4,449 nt of DNA from a virus (lineage: Duplodnaviria > Heunggongvirae > Uroviricota > Caudoviricetes). The number at the start of each line of letters is the position of its first letter. The first letter of the stretch is position 1. The notes under the pieces are model-generated. The model did not search any database. It was not told the DNA's origin and saw nothing but the letters and a program-made list of their open reading frames with translations. Of the stretch, positions 1 through 4,449 are shown one piece after another. A program made the translations under genes and the position numbers. Location of the stretch: the IMG/VR virus record IMGVR_UViG_2703718797_000011, one strand, 5' to 3'.

Positions 1-564
1 GTTGACTGGTCATTTCCTGTACTGGTGGAAGATGTGGTGATGATGGGCCGCTATGGGCATATGGGTATGTTGCGTATCGCCAAAAAGAGGGATCGTCAAA
101 TTGTCACCGATGCGCTGGAACGTGTCGATATGGTGAATTTTCGCCATCGACAAATCGGCGAGCTTTCCGGTGGACAAAAGAAACGCGTCTTTCTGGCGAG
201 AGCGATTGCACAGCAGGGTGATGTGATCCTGCTGGATGAACCTTTTACTGGCGTTGATGTGAAAACCGAAGCCAAAATCATCAGCCTGTTGAGGGAGTTA
301 CGCGCGGAAGGCAAAACGATGCTTGTCTCAACGCACAATCTCGGATCCGTCACGACATTTTGCGATTATACGGTCATGGTCAAAGGCACCGTCCTGGCAA
401 GCGGGCCGACAGACACCACTTTTACAGCCGAGAACCTGGAGCTGGCTTTTAGCGGCGTACTGCGCCATGTCACACTTAACGGCTCGGAAGAAAGCATTAT
501 TACTGACGATGAACGCCCTTTTGTGGCTCATCGACCGTCAGCGGTGCAGAGGGAAGAAAGATGA
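1..564 (+). CDS. sitB: Metal (Mn2+/Fe2+) ABC transporter ATP-binding subunit, SitB/YfeB-type; 5'-truncated by the window edge (C-terminal ~187 codons present)
   Basis: The frame of track ORF 25..564 stays open back to base 1, so the GTG at 25 is not the real start and the gene begins upstream of the window. The translation carries the ABC signature LSGGQ, Walker B/D-loop [11 protein letters not shown] and H-loop STHN; Walker A is absent, as expected for a C-terminal fragment. The stop overlaps the next gene's ATG (ATGA at 561-564). The symbol is inferred from the two-permease operon architecture and phage-associated context; yfeB-type naming is equally possible. Confidence 0.85.
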
Positions 565-1418
565 ACGTGCTACTGGAACCCTTCAGCTATGAATATATGC
601 TCAATGCGATGTGGGTCTCGGCGATGGTCGGCGGTCTCTGCGCTTTCCTGTCATGCTATCTGATGCTAAAAGGCTGGTCGCTGATTGGCGATGCGTTGTC
701 GCACTCTATTGTCCCGGGTGTTGCGGGGGCATATATGCTGGGGCTTCCGTTTTCTCTGGGAGCCTTCTTTTCCGGCGGACTGGCTGCGGGCAGCATGCTG
801 TTTCTTAACCAACGCACCCGCTTAAAAGAAGATGCCATCATCGGTCTGATCTTCTCGTCCTTTTTTGGCCTGGGGCTGTTTATGGTGTCATTGAACCCGA
901 CATCTGTGAACATTCAGACCATCGTCCTGGGCAATATTCTGGCAATCGATCCGGCGGATATCCTGCAACTCACTATCATTGGCATTCTCTCGATCATCGT
1001 GCTTTTTTTCAAATGGAAAGATCTTATGGTGACCTTTTTCGACGAGAATCACGCCCGTGCTATTGGATTGCATCCGGGCAGATTAAAACTCCTCTTCTTC
1101 ACCCTGCTGTCGGTTTCGACCGTTGCGGCGCTGCAAACGGTTGGTGCCTTTCTGGTGATCTGTCTGGTGGTGACTCCCGGTGCAACAGCATGGTTGTTAA
1201 CCGATCGTTTTCCCCGCCTGCTCATGATTGCTGTAACTATTGGCAGTGTAACCAGTTTCCTCGGCGCGTGGGTCAGTTACTTTCTGGACGGCGCGACAGG
1301 TGGAATCATCGTGGTGGCGCAGACACTGCTGTTTCTTTTAGCATTTGTCTTTGCGCCCACCCATGGGCTTTTGGCAAATCGTCGGCGTGCGCATAAGGCG
1401 CTGGAGGATCGCTCATGA
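561..1418 (+). CDS. sitC: Metal ABC transporter permease, ABC-3 family (SitC/YfeC-type), 285 aa
   Basis: 285-aa strongly hydrophobic ORF with multiple predicted TM helices and the conserved ABC-3 permease motif [11 protein letters not shown]. The ATG overlaps the upstream ATPase stop (translational coupling), with a purine-rich SD-like stretch (GGGAAGAAAG) directly upstream. It is followed by a paralogous second permease, as in sitCD/yfeCD operons. Confidence 0.85.
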
Positions 1419-2272
1419 TGGCATTATTACTGGAGCCACTGCAGTTCACCTTTATGAGTCACGCACTGCTGATTTCACTGGTAGTTTCCATACCCTGTGC
1501 GCTGCTGTCGGTCTTTCTGGTCCTGAAAGGTTGGGCACTGATGGGTGACGCGATGAGTCATGCGGTTTTTCCTGGCATCGTGCTTGCCTGGATTCTGGGG
1601 TTACCTTTGGCTACAGGGGCATTCGTCGCCGGAGTATTCTGCGCGGTGGCGACGGGATACCTGAAAGACAACAGCCGAATCAAGCAAGATACAGTGATGG
1701 GGATTGTTTTTTCTGGCATGTTTGCCGCAGGTCTGATTTTGTATATTGCAGTCAAACCAGACGTACATCTTGACCATATTCTTTTCGGCGACATGCTCGG
1801 GATAACCATCGGCGATATAATCCAGACGATGATTATTGCCGGGCTGGTTACACTTGTTATTAGCGTAAAATGGCGGGATTTTTTGCTGTTCAGCTTTGAT
1901 TATCAACAGGCGCAGGTAAGCGGTTTGCATACGAGATGGCTGCATTATGGGCTGCTGTGCATGGTCTCTCTGACCATTGTGGCGACGCTGAAAGCGGTAG
2001 GTATCATTCTCTCCATTTCTCTGCTCATTGCGCCTGGCGCCATTGCGGTACTCCTGACACAACGCTTTCATATTGCGCTCCTACTGGCGACTGGCATATC
2101 GGTAATAGTGTCAATGACTGGTGTCTGGTTGTCCTTTTTTATCGACAGCGCACCAGCTCCGACGATTGTCGTCTTATTCGCGGTTTTGTTCATCATGACG
2201 TTTGCCGTTACCAGCATCAACGCACGCAAAAAGGGAAACTCCCATACACAGGATCTGTTATCACCCAATTAG
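1415..2272 (+). CDS. sitD: Metal ABC transporter permease, ABC-3 family (SitD/YfeD-type), 285 aa
   Basis: 285-aa hydrophobic ORF, paralogous to the preceding permease, with the equivalent motif GDAMSHAVFPG. The ATG overlaps the sitC stop (ATGA) and a GGAGG SD sits about 8 nt upstream. It is the last gene of the + strand operon, with a TAG stop at 2270-2272. Confidence 0.85.
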   Translation: MMALLLEPLQFTFMSHALLISLVVSIPCALLSVFLVLKGWALMGDAMSHAVFPGIVLAWILGLPLATGAFVAGVFCAVATGYLKDNSRIKQDTVMGIVFSGMFAAGLILYIAVKPDVHLDHILFGDMLGITIGDIIQTMIIAGLVTLVISVKWRDFLLFSFDYQQAQVSGLHTRWLHYGLLCMVSLTIVATLKAVGIILSISLLIAPGAIAVLLTQRFHIALLLATGISVIVSMTGVWLSFFIDSAPAPTIVVLFAVLFIMTFAVTSINARKKGNSHTQDLLSPN

Positions 2273-2319
2273 CACAACATCCGAGGACAGCAACACCCGA
2301 TACTTTTTCCTGGCTTCCA

Positions 2320-2344
2320 GCAACGGGGTTTCTTCCTCCGTTGC
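2320..2344. other. Inverted repeat / stem-loop (7-bp stem GCAACGG...CCGTTGC, 11-nt loop) in the convergent intergenic region
   Basis: Read directly from the sequence between the sitD stop (2272) and the stop of the minus-strand 70-aa ORF (2364). There is no adjacent U-tract on either strand, so it is not a canonical intrinsic terminator; it may be a weak bidirectional terminator or an RNA-stabilising hairpin. Confidence 0.3.
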
Positions 2345-2363
2345 ATATACAGCTCACCTTTTT

Positions 2364-2576
2364 TCAACGCGGATCAAAACCGCCCCACCACGGCATATTC
2401 ATTCGCTTGCCATGCCCGAACATTTCAATCCAGCGATATTCTGCCTGGGTATGTTCACGCGCAATGAAGAACGTACAACCGGCTATCGCTCCGTAAGCCC
2501 AGTTTCCGGTAAAAAGACCAACCAGTATCTGCGCAGCCACAGCACAAAGTGCATGAAGTAAGGGGCTTATATCCAT
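2364..2576 (-). CDS. Hypothetical small membrane protein (70 aa): two predicted hydrophobic helices plus an aromatic/basic C-terminal tail; family not recognised
   Basis: The ATG is preceded by a canonical AGGAGG Shine-Dalgarno with a ~5-nt spacer. The N-terminal ~40 residues are hydrophobic (PLLHALCAVAAQILVGLF, WAYGAIAGCTFFI) and the C-terminus is Trp/Arg/Lys/His-rich (RWIEMFGHGKRMNMPWWGGFDPR). It starts 12 nt downstream of the 92-aa ORF stop on the same strand. GC is about 50 percent, unlike the AT-rich genes upstream of it. Confidence 0.6.
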   Translation of the reverse strand: MDISPLLHALCAVAAQILVGLFTGNWAYGAIAGCTFFIAREHTQAEYRWIEMFGHGKRMNMPWWGGFDPR

Positions 2577-2588
2577 TATTTCCTCCTT
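2577..2588 (-). promoter_or_regulatory. Shine-Dalgarno (AGGAGG) for the 70-aa ORF, located in the 12-nt spacer after the 92-aa ORF stop
   Basis: Plus strand shows CCTCCT at about 2582-2587, i.e. AGGAGG on the minus strand, about 5 nt upstream of the ATG at 2576-2574. It lies immediately after the TGA of the 92-aa ORF (2591-2589). Confidence 0.6.
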
Positions 2589-2867
2589 TCAGCTCCATTC
2601 CCGAAGCGGTGTTTCCAGCTCCACGACATAATCAGAGAATACAGAAACATCAAACAAGTCATCAAGAATGCGAATGTTGACAAAATAACCATCATTCCGG
2701 ATACAGACAGGTTCTCCCTCTTCTGTTACCCCTGTTTCTGTGTAGGTGAAACCAATTTCATCAACTAACAGTTTATTCTGGAGGTCTTCATCTTCCGCCC
2801 AGCCAAGAGATGACAGGAAGGCCTTAAACTGCAGTTTGTCATGAAACTTCAAAGTTAAATCTTTCAT
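2589..2867 (-). CDS. Hypothetical small, strongly acidic protein (92 aa); family not recognised
   Basis: ATG with an AAGAGG SD-like sequence about 5 nt upstream. The start overlaps the stop of the upstream 220-aa ORF (ATGA at 2864-2867). About 20 Asp/Glu against about 9 Lys/Arg/His, including a DEDEDL patch, with no hydrophobic segment. AT-rich (about 40 percent GC) yet open for 92 codons. Confidence 0.6.
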   Translation of the reverse strand: MKDLTLKFHDKLQFKAFLSSLGWAEDEDLQNKLLVDEIGFTYTETGVTEEGEPVCIRNDGYFVNIRILDDLFDVSVFSDYVVELETPLREWS

Positions 2868-3526
2868 ACGACCTCTTTTAATTGCCTGTCATTTAATTCT
2901 TTATGCCATATGCGGAAATTGCGAATATGGCCAAACAGATGTCGTTCTCCAGTATTCGTCTGCCCTCCAAATCGGATATTTTTATCAGCGGTCACGCCAT
3001 TATATTCACAATAAACTTCATTAACCGCTTTACCATTTGTCACCACATGAAAGTGACCATCAGCTTTTGCAATACATCCAAATGTGGTTTTCTCTGCAAA
3101 TACATCTGTCGCTGCGCTATTAACATACGAGCCTGAAGGGTTTGACAGACTCATATATAACTTACCACTACCTCTGTTGATTGCTGCAATTGCTGATTGC
3201 CCGGTATTGGCTGCTGCTATATCCCACACGCGGGGTGCGGCGTTTGGTGCAATATCCCAGTTTTTATGAATCTCAAGTAAAAAAGTAAATGGTAACTTAT
3301 AAAGATTATTTCTGGTGGGGATACTAACCAAATCACTGGCTCTTGTCGTTGCGCTGCCTCCTGAAATAATAAATGATGATACACACGGCCCATTCTCTAC
3401 TTGTGGGGTGGCAAGATAAATATAGTCACCAGATACTGTTGCCCCACCCTGCAATAATTTCAAGCGTTTGCGTATCAATGTACGCATCGCCAAGAAAAGT
3501 TGTTGCACTACCATCATACTTATCAA
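2864..3526 (-). CDS. Hypothetical protein (up to 220 aa) with a putative ConA-like/LamG-type jelly-roll C-terminal domain; start codon uncertain; alternatively a frameshifted distal extension of the tail fiber
   Basis: A 220-codon open frame in roughly 42 percent GC DNA is unlikely by chance. The C-terminal motif NIRFGGQTNTGERHLFGHIRNFRIWHKELNDRQLKEV resembles the terminal strands of LamG/Laminin_G_3-type lectin domains (compare F-x-G-x-I-D-E-V-R-I-Y-x-x-A-L-S-x-x-E-I). The track start at 3526 is a TTG; in-frame ATGs lie at codons 4, 5 and 14, all inside the tail fiber coding region and none with an SD. Downstream of the tail fiber stop there is no ATG until about codon 125. The stop overlaps the ATG of the 92-aa ORF. 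Confidence 0.5.
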   Translation of the reverse strand: MISMMVVQQLFLAMRTLIRKRLKLLQGGATVSGDYIYLATPQVENGPCVSSFIISGGSATTRASDLVSIPTRNNLYKLPFTFLLEIHKNWDIAPNAAPRVWDIAAANTGQSAIAAINRGSGKLYMSLSNPSGSYVNSAATDVFAEKTTFGCIAKADGHFHVVTNGKAVNEVYCEYNGVTADKNIRFGGQTNTGERHLFGHIRNFRIWHKELNDRQLKEVV

Positions 3527-4449
3527 ACCGTATACGTAACCTTACCTGTCGTTCTGTTTTAAAACGGCATGAGGTTGTCACGTACTTGTTATCGCCTGAG
3601 ACATCAACTGACTTTGTTGCAGCAATTGATGCCATATTAATAGCCGAAGTTTGCCCAACCAGAGAATCGTTGCAGACAAACTTTCCATAAGTAAAACCAA
3701 AACTATCCGTCCCGGTTTCGGGCACATCCATGTTTGATGACTTCCCCCAGCTGGCTGGACTTTCCGAATTGAGCATGTAGTTCGTTCTTTGTCCCTCAAT
3801 AAGCAGGCCATCACACTCAAATCGCGGCTCATTAATTTCCGCCGTTTTCAGTTCGCCAGATTTGTTGATATATGTTGCCGTTGATGCGCGACTGAAATTA
3901 ACCTGTTTATCACTGGCGACCTGAACCACATCGTCACCAATAGCTATTTTTTTATAGCCCGGAGAAAAACCCGCAATCATATCCAGTGAATCGTTAAACG
4001 GTATCCACACATCAGGCAGCGGCGGCACTATATTCGCACAGGGCTCTGCAGTCACTTCCGCTGCGGCTTCTGCGCGGTCTGCCGCCTTTTCAGCTCGTGT
4101 CGCTGCCGACAGAGCCTCATCCTTTTTCTGCCCGGCCTTTGTTGCGTCTGCTGCGGCCTCCCGCGCTTTTGTGGTGGCGACTCCGGCATTTTCAGCGGCT
4201 GACTCTGCATTACGGCGGGAAGCCTCTTCACTGTCTGCGGAGGCTTCTTCTGACGCACGGGCATTTGTCTCTGAACGTTCTGCCGCTGTTGCTGCGTTTT
4301 GTGCGGCTGTTTTTGAAGAAGCTGCCGCTTTCGCGCTGTTACCTGCATTCGTCTCTGATGTTTTCGCCGCGTTCCTGGACGATGCCGCTGCTGTTTCTGA
4401 TTTCTTTGCTGCCGCTGCGCTCTGAGAGGCGGCTTCAGCGTTGCGTGCC
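3426..4449 (-). CDS. Phage side tail fiber protein (lambda Stf-like), 5'-truncated by the window edge; C-terminal ~340 codons present
   Basis: The frame of track ORF 3426..4055 remains open upstream of its GTG to the window end. The upstream part translates to an Ala/Ser/Thr/Glu-rich repeat tract (e.g. AAKTSETNAGNSAKAAASSKTAAQNAATAAERSETNARASEEA) that resembles the repeat shaft of lambda Stf-type tail fibers. The distal ~209 aa (TAEPCANIVPPLPDVWIPFNDSL ... EIIAGWGNSIW) is non-repetitive and AT-rich. The track reports only 3426..4055 because the repeat tract lacks ATG/GTG/TTG codons. Confidence 0.8.
   Translation of the reverse strand, partial: ARNAEAASQSAAAAKKSETAAASSRNAAKTSETNAGNSAKAAASSKTAAQNAATAAERSETNARASEEASADSEEASRRNAESAAENAGVATTKAREAAADATKAGQKKDEALSAATRAEKAADRAEAAAEVTAEPCANIVPPLPDVWIPFNDSLDMIAGFSPGYKKIAIGDDVVQVASDKQVNFSRASTATYINKSGELKTAEINEPRFECDGLLIEGQRTNYMLNSESPASWGKSSNMDVPETGTDSFGFTYGKFVCNDSLVGQTSAINMASIAATKSVDVSGDNKYVTTSCRFKTERQVRLRIRFDKYDGSATTFLGDAYIDTQTLEIIAGWGNSIW
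4056..4449 (-). repeat. Ala-rich low-complexity tandem repeat tract, coding (tail fiber shaft repeats)
   Basis: GC-rich GCN-dominated codon periodicity. Degenerate repeating peptide units (KTSETNA, SETNARASEEA, AEKAADRAEAAAE). The other frames give spurious Gln/Arg/Lys-rich and Ala/Phe-rich ORFs (track ORFs 4052..4348 - and 4171..4425 +). Confidence 0.6.

What the first reader, a model, noticed from the sequence alone, without database searches (positions are those of the whole stretch)
1..2272. Mn/Fe ABC importer genes (sitBCD-like) sit directly beside a phage tail fiber gene: likely a prophage-borne metal-uptake cargo
The two-permease ABC-3 importer (ATPase plus two paralogous 285-aa permeases) converges on a lambda-like tail fiber gene, with only three small ORFs and a 91-bp gap between them. 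sit/yfe-type systems are known fitness and virulence factors for metal acquisition, and sit loci in Shigella and pathogenic E. coli have been described in phage-associated islands. This window shows the physical junction between the cargo operon and the phage structural module.
Basis: partly seen in the sequence, partly recalled or inferred. Interest (0 to 1): 0.4.

Follow-up and report, generated by a model that had tools for sequence, protein, structure and literature searches.

The report
Phage-carried sitABCD metal importer, already known

Summary
Positions 1-2272 encode the 3' part of sitB, then sitC and sitD. They run convergently into a phage side tail fibre (stf) module across a 91-bp spacer.

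The window is 99.9% identical to E. coli NGF1, NC101 and LF82 chromosomes. There it lies in a complete lambdoid prophage next to an icd' fragment. The same layout (stf, orf92, orf97, then sitDCBA, icd', attP, int) occurs in deposited phage genomes: phage 21, Perceval, and the infant-gut lambda phages of Mathieu et al. 2020. That paper already reports sitABCD as the commonest virulence-factor moron. The "PAI-icd / Sit" island of ExPEC is also in the literature. Hence: already known, low interest.

Added here:
- The sit insert measures 3,743 bp in NGF1. sit-negative phages (PhiR11_1, mEp460) keep an empty site, where a 45-bp terminator hairpin stands in its place.
- IncF plasmids share the insert from within 5 bp of its left edge to 27 bp past sitD.
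- The insert carries its own Fur and MntR boxes.

A correction: the third "small ORF" is the 3' part of stf, split by a 137-nt frameshifting deletion. An 81-nt deletion truncates orf97. Neither junction was found in any collection searched, so they are a private variant or an assembly artefact.

The parts
1..564 (+). sitB, 3' part (187 codons; the 5' end lies left of the window): ATP-binding subunit of the Mn/Fe ABC importer
   Evidence: Pfam ABC_tran. NCBIfam equivalog NF011630 scores 406.8 bits against a cut-off of 393. RefSeq annotates sitB at 99.9% identity.
561..1418 (+). sitC, ABC-3 permease, 285 aa; 4-nt overlap with sitB
   Evidence: Pfam ABC-3 at E 5.6e-83. RefSeq names it sitC. ZnuB model scores only 78 bits against a cut-off of 284.
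1415..2272 (+). sitD, ABC-3 permease, 285 aa; paralogue of sitC (37% identity); 4-nt overlap with sitC
   Evidence: RefSeq names it sitD.
2273..2299 (.). Last 27 bp of the sit cassette that phage and IncF-plasmid copies share; plasmid homology stops at 2299
   Evidence: About a thousand plasmid records match; those listed match window 1-2299 at about 97.5% identity. p3PCN033 aligns to NGF1 18638-22299.
2273..2363 (.). 91-bp convergent spacer between sitD and orf97. It holds a 7-bp-stem hairpin (2320-2326 / 2338-2344) followed by a T6 run. No canonical terminator was detected.
   Evidence: fold z-score -1.4, not significant. There is partial, sub-threshold homology to Rfam IS009.
2364..2576 (-). 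Truncated orf97: a phage membrane-protein gene of unknown function (phrog_1443). It is 70 aa here and 97 aa in all references. An 81-nt deletion plus one substitution at 2367 removes the last 27 codons, which hold the second predicted transmembrane segment.
   Evidence: The phage 21 record annotates a signal sequence and 2 TMDs. No Pfam or PADLOC hit.
2589..2867 (-). orf92: conserved small phage ORF of unknown function (phrog_1361). It overlaps the stf stop by 4 nt and always follows stf.
   Evidence: No Pfam or PADLOC hit.
2864..3526 (-). 3' fragment of the side tail fibre gene stf (C-terminal concanavalin/Laminin_G_3-like domain, presumed receptor-binding). It is out of frame with the upstream part in this window.
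   Evidence: Pfam Laminin_G_3 at E 7e-6, 26.7 bits, just below the 27.6 cut-off. It is collinear with residues of about 467-686 of the intact 686-aa Stf of NGF1.
3426..4449 (-). Central part of stf (Ala-rich coiled region and shaft). It runs off the right end of the window, leaving about 112 N-terminal codons outside. It ends at a premature stop (3426-3428) after 9 frameshifted codons.
   Evidence: phrog_1419 and phrog_3279 are tail fibre families. PF08400 is present in the full-length reference.
3452..3455 (.). Junction of a 137-nt deletion (plus one adjacent substitution) relative to every reference; it frameshifts stf
   Evidence: The junction is absent from all collections searched.

Best explanation
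The window is the right-hand end of the sitABCD moron of a phage-21/Perceval-type lambdoid prophage of E. coli, where it meets the phage's side tail fibre module.

In the reference genomes the prophage lies next to an icd' fragment (phage 21 type integration). The order there is: late tail genes, J, (lom), stf, orf92, orf97, then the convergent sitDCBA, then small ORFs, icd', attP, int. This position corresponds to the non-essential b region of lambda.

How it works:
- SitA (outside the window) binds Mn2+/Fe2+ in the periplasm.
- The SitC/SitD heterodimer forms the membrane channel.
- SitB hydrolyses ATP.
- The operon is read from its own promoter region, which carries Fur-box and MntR-box matches. 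It is therefore expected to be expressed in the lysogen under host metal control, independently of and opposite to the phage late operon.

The phage thereby converts its host to better Mn/Fe acquisition and oxidative-stress resistance.

What is shown and what is not:
- Shown here: gene identities, synteny in prophages and in deposited phage genomes, the insert boundaries, and the operator-like sites.
- Taken from the literature: the transport function, expression in the lysogen, and the fitness effect.
- Inferred: that this particular copy sits in such a prophage, because the window itself holds no att site or head genes.
For: - Whole window is 99.9% identical to NGF1, NC101 and LF82 chromosomes; 1,019 of 5,426 complete E. 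coli genomes hold at least 80% of it in one place.
- NGF1 context is an icd' fragment, sitABCD, orf97, orf92, stf, lom, J and onwards to terminase.
- The layout is identical in phage 21 (with annotated attP, icd' and int) and in Perceval.
- 28 phage records carry sitBCD.
- All the near-full matches to the phage-21 int/icd' module among phage records are sit carriers (read).
- SitB clears the Mn/Fe equivalog cut-off, and the permeases are ABC-3, not ZnuB.
- A Fur-box match lies at L001 18728-18746 and a perfect MntR-type palindrome at 18769-18790, both upstream of sitA.
- sit-negative phages PhiR11_1 and mEp460 keep the two flanks contiguous, which is an empty site.
- Literature: sitABCD sits on 70% of infant-gut lambda phages, with a fur box (PMC6969025). 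EAEC 042 prophage 042p3 carries sit at its tail end (PMC2808357). Perceval sit genes are transcribed 4-13 fold above prophage background in the lysogen (PMC9928086). PAI-icd with the Sit system is described in ExPEC and AIEC (PMC7545054).
Against: - The window alone contains no att site, integrase or head gene, so the prophage context rests on near-identical references.
- In this copy stf is frameshifted and orf97 is truncated, so this prophage may lack side tail fibres or be decaying.
- No canonical promoter or terminator was detected by the simple scans.
- sitA and the regulatory region lie outside the window.
Confidence: 0.95

Rival explanations
1. The two deletions are real. This copy belongs to a prophage being domesticated: the host keeps sit while tail-fibre and accessory phage genes decay.
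For: A 137-nt frameshifting deletion in stf and an 81-nt truncation of orf97 exist relative to every reference. sit itself is intact, with only 3 substitutions against NGF1. The literature describes shorter PAI-icd remnants, for example 12 kb in ED1a.
Against: Neither junction occurs in 5,426 complete E. coli genomes, GTDB representatives, JGI metagenomes or IMG/VR. The undeleted junction is in 78 IMG/VR contigs. The fragment products are not on record among 153 billion gene positions. Loss of Stf need not disable a lambdoid phage: lambda PaPa has a frameshifted stf (my own knowledge), and deposited phage genomes 1W, 3W, 4A7 and D2 carry an IS insertion at the 3' end of stf.
Confidence: 0.4
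2. The two deletions are artefacts of assembly or sequence handling. The underlying genome has the standard intact stf and orf97.
For: Both junctions are unique in all collections searched. Each deletion is accompanied by a single adjacent base change and has no microhomology. Draft-assembly contigs from many samples end exactly at the base corresponding to window 2367, and L004 ends with the same variant base as the window. This suggests that point is an assembly-graph breakpoint.
Against: There is no direct evidence, because the reads are not available. Plasmid sit homology ends at 2299, not 2366, so a simple repeat-boundary collapse does not explain the left edge of the 81-nt gap.
Confidence: 0.5
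3. sit is a chromosomal island that merely lies next to a prophage or tailocin remnant and is not part of a mobile phage genome.
For: RefSeq flags the NGF1 stf as a pseudogene. Reviews call the region a pathogenicity island.
Against: sitABCD lies between stf and attP/int inside deposited phage genomes, and LF82 prophages including Perceval are reported as spontaneously induced. The full head, tail and terminase modules are adjacent in NGF1. The NGF1 stf ORF is actually intact.
Confidence: 0.02
4. The transporter is a different ABC-3 system (ZnuBC or MntBC type) rather than Sit.
For: ABC-3 permeases of different metal specificities share the same Pfam family.
Against: SitB passes the Mn/Fe ATPase equivalog cut-off. 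The ZnuB model scores 78 and 70 bits against a cut-off of 284, and AztB scores below its cut-off too. The genes are 99.9% identical to those RefSeq names sitB, sitC and sitD.
Confidence: 0.01

Closest known systems
Escherichia phage 21 (OL657228) and phage Perceval of E. coli LF82 (OV696612)
   Same: The gene order stf, orf92, orf97, convergent sitDCBA, icd', attP, int is identical. Identity is 99-100% over window 2273-4449 and 99.8-99.9% over sitBCD for Perceval.
   Different: The window lacks 81 nt at the 3' end of orf97 and 137 nt inside stf.
sitABCD moron of infant-gut lambda phages (Mathieu et al. 2020, PMC6969025), prophage 042p3 of EAEC 042 (PMC2808357), and PAI-icd of ExPEC/AIEC (PMC7545054)
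   Same: It is the same operon, at the same position at the tail end of a lambdoid prophage (next to icd in the PAI-icd cases), with a Fur box upstream.
   Different: Nothing substantive. Some of those phages carry other stf alleles, or an IS insertion at the stf 3' end.
Plasmid-borne sitABCD of IncF (iuc-carrying) plasmids, e.g. p3PCN033
   Same: The same 3.66-kb cassette runs from 185 bp upstream of sitA to 27 bp past sitD. It is 96.8% identical and includes the Fur and MntR boxes.
   Different: The plasmid copy is flanked by IS1 and plasmid genes instead of phage DNA. It is about 2.5% diverged from the phage copy, and homology ends at window 2299.
Salmonella SitABCD / Yersinia YfeABCD (founding Mn/Fe ABC-3 importers)
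   Same: The four-gene architecture is the same (binding protein, ATPase, two permeases), as is Fur/MntR control (my own knowledge; the operator matches are).
   Different: In Salmonella the operon is chromosomal, next to SPI-1, and not phage-borne (my own knowledge). DNA identity is only in the 60-80% band for the most distant hit.
Rfam RF02111 IS009 (E. coli intergenic sRNA candidate)
   Same: About 70 nt of the sitD-orf97 spacer (window about 2268-2340, minus strand) align to the 3' end of the model, and the orf97 stop codon aligns to its start.
   Different: The score is 52 bits against a gathering score of 117. The middle of the model is missing and no conserved structure is involved, so this is not a member.

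Membership tests
SitABCD-type Mn/Fe ABC importer (ABC-3 permeases) | ATP-binding subunit matches the Mn/Fe ABC ATPase equivalog above its curated cut-off | tested here: met
   NF011630 scores 406.8 bits against a cut-off of 393, even though the protein is truncated by the window edge.
SitABCD-type Mn/Fe ABC importer (ABC-3 permeases) | Two adjacent paralogous ABC-3 permease genes, translationally coupled | tested here: met
   Pfam ABC-3 at E 6e-83 and 2e-76. The two are 37% identical. Junctions overlap by 4 nt.
SitABCD-type Mn/Fe ABC importer (ABC-3 permeases) | Not the zinc system ZnuABC/AztABC | tested here: met
   ZnuB scores 78 and 70 bits against 284. AztB scores 186 and 185 bits against 280.
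SitABCD-type Mn/Fe ABC importer (ABC-3 permeases) | Cluster A-I substrate-binding protein gene (sitA) at the head of the operon, with Fur and MntR operators | tested here: met
   This lies outside the window but is present in the 99.9%-identical NGF1 locus: sitA at 18823-19737, a Fur-box match with 2 mismatches, and an MntR palindrome with 0 mismatches to the consensus I recalled.
SitABCD-type Mn/Fe ABC importer (ABC-3 permeases) | Actual Mn2+/Fe2+ transport | not testable with these tools
   Known only from the literature on Salmonella, Shigella and APEC Sit, as summarised in PMC7545054.
Moron of a lambdoid temperate phage (phage 21 / Perceval type) | Lies inside the phage genome, between the tail-fibre module and attP/int | tested here: met
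   Phage 21, Perceval, 1W and D2 records. 28 phage records carry sitBCD.
Moron of a lambdoid temperate phage (phage 21 / Perceval type) | Absent from otherwise homologous phages, leaving a recognisable empty site | tested here: met
   In PhiR11_1 (L014 4001-4347) and mEp460_4F5, the left flank, a 45-bp hairpin and orf97 are contiguous. NGF1 has 3,743 bp in place of that hairpin.
Moron of a lambdoid temperate phage (phage 21 / Perceval type) | Own regulatory signals and transcription independent of the phage late operon; expressed in the lysogen | tested here: inconclusive
   The orientation is convergent, and Fur and MntR boxes lie inside the cassette. The simple scan found no sigma-70 promoter or terminator. 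Expression in the LF82 lysogen is reported in PMC9928086.
Lambda-type side tail fibre (Stf) | Prophage tail fibre N-terminal domain PF08400 | tested here: met
   E 6e-68 in the full-length NGF1 homologue. That part lies beyond the window's right end.
Lambda-type side tail fibre (Stf) | Single intact ORF through the C-terminal receptor-binding domain | tested here: not met
   In the window a 137-nt deletion shifts the frame, giving a stop at 3426-3428 and leaving the C-terminal 220 codons in another frame.
Tailocin (phage-tail-like bacteriocin) cluster | Tail genes without head, portal, terminase or integration genes | tested here: not met
   Capsid, portal, terminase and nohD are adjacent in NGF1. 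Integrase and attP are present in phage 21.
Rfam RF02111 IS009 | Score at or above the family's gathering threshold | tested here: not met
   52.2 bits (window) and 51.7 bits (NGF1) against 117.

The most novel reading that the evidence does not exclude
The sit operon travels as a discrete, self-regulated cassette of about 3.7 kb, with Fur and MntR boxes included. Its left edge is the same to within 5 bp in lambdoid phages and in IncF plasmids. In the phage lineage it replaced a 45-bp terminator hairpin and the last three codons of orf97. This would point to one capture event, or to an unrecognised recombinase-free shuttle of a metal-uptake module between phages and plasmids. Separately, the window's two private deletions could mark a lineage in which the prophage's side fibre has been inactivated while sit is retained.
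Probability: 0.25. Interest if true: 0.3.

Novelty: already known. Interest (0 to 1): 0.08.

Why it matters
sitABCD is a recognised fitness and virulence factor of ExPEC, AIEC, APEC and Shigella. Its carriage by inducible lambdoid phages explains part of its wide distribution: here it is in 43% of complete E. coli genomes, with 1,651 chromosomal and 1,019 plasmid places.

All of this is published, so the window adds no new biology. The modest added value is the base-level definition of the insert against an empty site, and the shared boundary with plasmid copies. A useful caution also follows: the third "small ORF" is a fragment of stf.

Tried and rejected
- **Source of the window.** I looked for a source sequence carrying the two deletion junctions. 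They were absent from complete E. coli genomes, GTDB representatives, JGI metagenomes and IMG/VR. Exact-product look-ups of the stf C-terminal fragment with four alternative starts also found nothing. The source remains unknown.
- **Mosaic joint at 2368.** I first read the mEp460 match that starts at window 2368 as a mosaic joint. I rejected this. With the undeleted NGF1 as query, homology runs on to NGF1 22379, so the break was caused by the window's own deletion.
- **Repeat-boundary collapse.** I tested whether the 81-nt gap is a short unique stretch between two assembly repeats, with plasmid sit on one side. This is not supported, because plasmid homology ends at 2299, not 2366.
- **Terminator in the spacer.** I looked for a canonical intrinsic terminator or promoter in the 91-bp spacer and found none. 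The hairpin fold is not better than shuffles.
- **RNA genes and repeats.** Rfam gave only the sub-threshold IS009 hit. No tandem repeats were found.
- **Function of orf92 and orf97.** PHROGs assigns both to families of unknown function. There were no Pfam or PADLOC hits.
- **sit-negative phage with the phage-21 int/icd' module.** I found none in the phage collection. The empty site had to come from phages with other integration modules.
Full report
**1. What is in the window**

Six-frame ORF listing shows three plus-strand genes:
- An ORF open at the left edge, ending at 564.
- A 285-aa ORF at 561-1418.
- A 285-aa ORF at 1415-2272.

Each junction overlaps by 4 nt. Pfam assigns the first to ABC_tran and the other two to ABC-3 (E 5.6e-83 and 1.5e-76). 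The two permeases are 37% identical.

The ATPase fragment clears NCBIfam's curated cut-off for the manganese/iron ABC ATPase equivalog, although it is truncated (406.8 bits against 393). The permeases score far below the ZnuB and AztB cut-offs.

After a 91-bp spacer (2273-2363), everything is on the minus strand:
- A 70-aa ORF at 2364-2576.
- A 92-aa ORF at 2589-2867.
- A 220-aa ORF at 2864-3526, with a weak Laminin_G_3 match.
- A 209-aa stretch at 3426-4055, whose frame stays open to the right edge.

**2. Where it comes from**

Megablast against 5,426 complete E. coli genomes gives 99.9% identity over the full window to NGF1, NC101, LF82 and many other strains. 1,019 genomes hold at least 80% of the window in one place. 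RefSeq annotates sitB, sitC, sitD, two hypothetical proteins and a prophage tail fibre.

In NGF1 the surroundings run as follows:
- A 3' fragment of an isocitrate dehydrogenase gene, which is the icd' scar left by phage-21-type integration.
- A 759-nt hypothetical gene.
- sitABCD.
- The two small ORFs and stf.
- lom, J, the tail assembly genes and the tape measure gene.
- Head genes, portal and terminase.

This is a complete lambdoid morphogenesis module, not a tailocin.

**3. It is inside real phages**

The phage collection holds 28 records with sitBCD, 26 of them at 99% identity or more. It holds 59 records with the fibre side.

In coliphage 21 (Paris sewer, 1950s), the depositors annotate this order: side tail fibre, hypothetical protein, putative membrane protein (signal sequence and 2 TMDs), SitD, SitC, SitB, SitA, small ORFs, an ICDH-like pseudogene, attP, and a tyrosine integrase. 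Perceval, a prophage of LF82, has the same order and is 100% identical to window 2273-4449 apart from the deletions.

All the near-full matches to the phage-21 int/icd' module in the collection are sit carriers (read).

**4. It is published**

- Mathieu et al. 2020 (PMC6969025) found sitABCD on 70% of lambda phages from infant-gut E. coli. They called it a moron and noted a fur box upstream.
- Chaudhuri et al. [quoted passage not shown]
- Misson et al. 2023 (PMC9928086) list the Perceval sit genes as morons transcribed 4-13 fold above prophage background in the lysogen.
- Desvaux et al. 2020 (PMC7545054) tabulate PAI-icd with the Sit system in 536, CFT073, UTI89, S88, APEC O1, LF82 and others. 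They also cite the Shigella PAI sit.

**5.

IncF plasmid copies, such as p3PCN033, share homology with the prophage copy only over NGF1 locus 18638-22299. That runs from 185 bp upstream of sitA to 27 bp past the sitD stop, which is window 2299. Identity is 96.8%.

sit-negative phages supply an empty site:
- In mEp460_4F5, homology to NGF1 covers 22379-23500 (orf97, orf92, stf 3') and a 64-bp stretch matching NGF1 18567-18630. These are 53 bp apart in mEp460, against 3,748 bp in NGF1.
- In PhiR11_1, a single alignment joins NGF1 18473-18632 to the orf97 homologue. Between them is a 45-bp GC hairpin with a T run: AGCCATCCGCAGTA...TACTGCGGCTTTTT.

The sit insert is therefore NGF1 18633-22375, which is 3,743 bp. 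It replaced that terminator and the last three codons of orf97.

The left flank also matches lambda's b region (24184-24348, 80% identity), so both sides of the insert are lambdoid DNA.

The left edge agrees to within 5 bp between the plasmid comparison and the empty-site comparison. On the right, 76 bp (22300-22375) are phage-specific. Part of this stretch resembles the 3' end of Rfam IS009, a prophage intergenic family, but well below threshold (52 bits against 117).

**6. Regulation**

Inside the shared cassette, upstream of sitA in NGF1, there are two operator-like sites:
- A Fur-box match, GCTAATGATAATCATTTTC, with 2 mismatches (chance expectation 0.01).
- A perfect inverted repeat, AAACATAGCAACGGCTATGTTT. 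It matches the MntR-box consensus I recalled from the E. coli mntH promoter (chance expectation 0).

The cassette thus brings its own host-regulon operators. This fits the literature on dual Fur/MntR control of sit in Salmonella (my own knowledge). The simple sigma-70 and terminator scans found nothing convincing.

**7. What differs in this window**

Against NGF1, the window is collinear except for two gaps.

- **First gap.** 81 nt are missing immediately after the orf97 stop codon, and the adjacent base 2367 is changed. This removes the last 27 codons, which hold the second predicted TM segment, and leaves 70 aa.
- **Second gap.** 137 nt are missing near 3452, again with one adjacent base change. 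This shifts the stf frame. The N-terminal two-thirds end after 9 aberrant codons at 3426-3428.

In all references stf is one ORF of 686-688 aa.

Neither junction has microhomology. Neither junction is found in:
- 5,426 complete E. coli genomes.
- GTDB species representatives.
- JGI metagenomes.
- IMG/VR.

The undeleted orf97 junction occurs in 78 IMG/VR contigs, which serves as a positive control. The C-terminal fragment, tried with four possible starts, is not on record among 153 billion gene positions.

The 70-aa product is on record only as a gene cut by a contig end. Many draft contigs stop exactly at the base that corresponds to window 2367, and L004 ends with the same variant base as the window.

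I cannot decide between a private natural variant and an assembly or processing artefact. Either way, sit is intact. A broken stf would not by itself make a lambdoid phage defective: lambda PaPa is stf-frameshifted (my own knowledge), and the phage genomes 1W, 3W, 4A7 and D2 carry an IS insertion at the stf 3' end.

**8. Distribution**

sitBCD occurs in 2,347 of 5,426 complete E. coli genomes, at 1,651 chromosomal and 1,019 plasmid places. About 1,020 records have it joined to this stf allele. Plasmid hits are mostly Escherichia, with some Klebsiella, Salmonella and Shigella, and diverged native copies in Pantoea.

**9. Verdict**

- Novelty: already known.
- Interest is low.
- The only unexplained item is the pair of private deletions.

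Noticed in passing
window 2367 and 3452-3455: Two deletions (81 nt and 137 nt) relative to every reference. Each has one adjacent base substitution and no microhomology. They truncate orf97 and frameshift stf. Neither junction occurs in any collection searched.
   Followed up: yes
window 2367; loci L004-L009 (contig ends): Draft-assembly contigs from many samples end exactly at the base corresponding to window 2367, so gene callers report the same 70-aa partial product. L004 ends with the same variant base (T on the minus strand) as the window. The reason is not established.
   Followed up: partly
window 2268-2427 (-): Sub-threshold Rfam hit to IS009 (RF02111): 52 bits against a gathering score of 117. 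The sitD-orf97 spacer shares about 70 nt with the 3' end of that E. coli prophage intergenic family, and the middle of the model is absent.
   Followed up: partly
L001 18728-18746 and 18769-18790 (outside the window, upstream of sitA): A Fur-box match (2 mismatches) and a perfect MntR-type palindrome, AAACATAGCAACGGCTATGTTT. Both lie inside the cassette shared with plasmids. The terminator scan mis-called the palindrome as a terminator-like hairpin.
   Followed up: partly
L014 4001-4347 (PhiR11_1); L010 6814-6931 (mEp460_4F5): sit-negative phages keep an empty site. The left flank, a 45-bp GC hairpin with a T run, and the orf97 homologue are contiguous. The left flank also matches lambda b region 24184-24348 at 80% identity.
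   Followed up: yes
L011 14113-16235; L012 9116-11532: In phages D2 and 1W (and apparently 3W and 4A7), three 'mobile element protein' genes (IS66-like by their three-ORF layout; family not tested) are inserted between the stf 3' end and orf92. These genomes are nevertheless deposited as phages from lysogens.
   Followed up: no
L001 23301-25005: RefSeq (PGAP) flags the NGF1 stf as a pseudogene missing its C-terminus. Direct translation shows one uninterrupted 686-aa ORF (22945-25005).
   Followed up: partly
window 4052-4449: The Ala/Glu/Ser-rich coiled region of Stf (GC about 59%) produces long spurious ORFs in the other minus frame (4052-4348) and on the plus strand (4171-4425). Tandem Repeats Finder found no tandem DNA repeat there.
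   Followed up: partly
window 2589-2867 and 2364-2576: orf92 and orf97 always travel with this stf allele, in both sit-positive and sit-negative phages. They have no Pfam, PADLOC or annotated PHROG function. orf92 overlaps the stf stop by 4 nt, which suggests translational coupling and possibly a fibre-assembly role.
   Followed up: partly
L013 2770-3467: In the IncF plasmid p3PCN033 the sit cassette has an IS1 immediately upstream, and crcB, an MFS transporter gene and iucA lie downstream. This is consistent with IS-mediated assembly of the plasmid virulence region.
   Followed up: no
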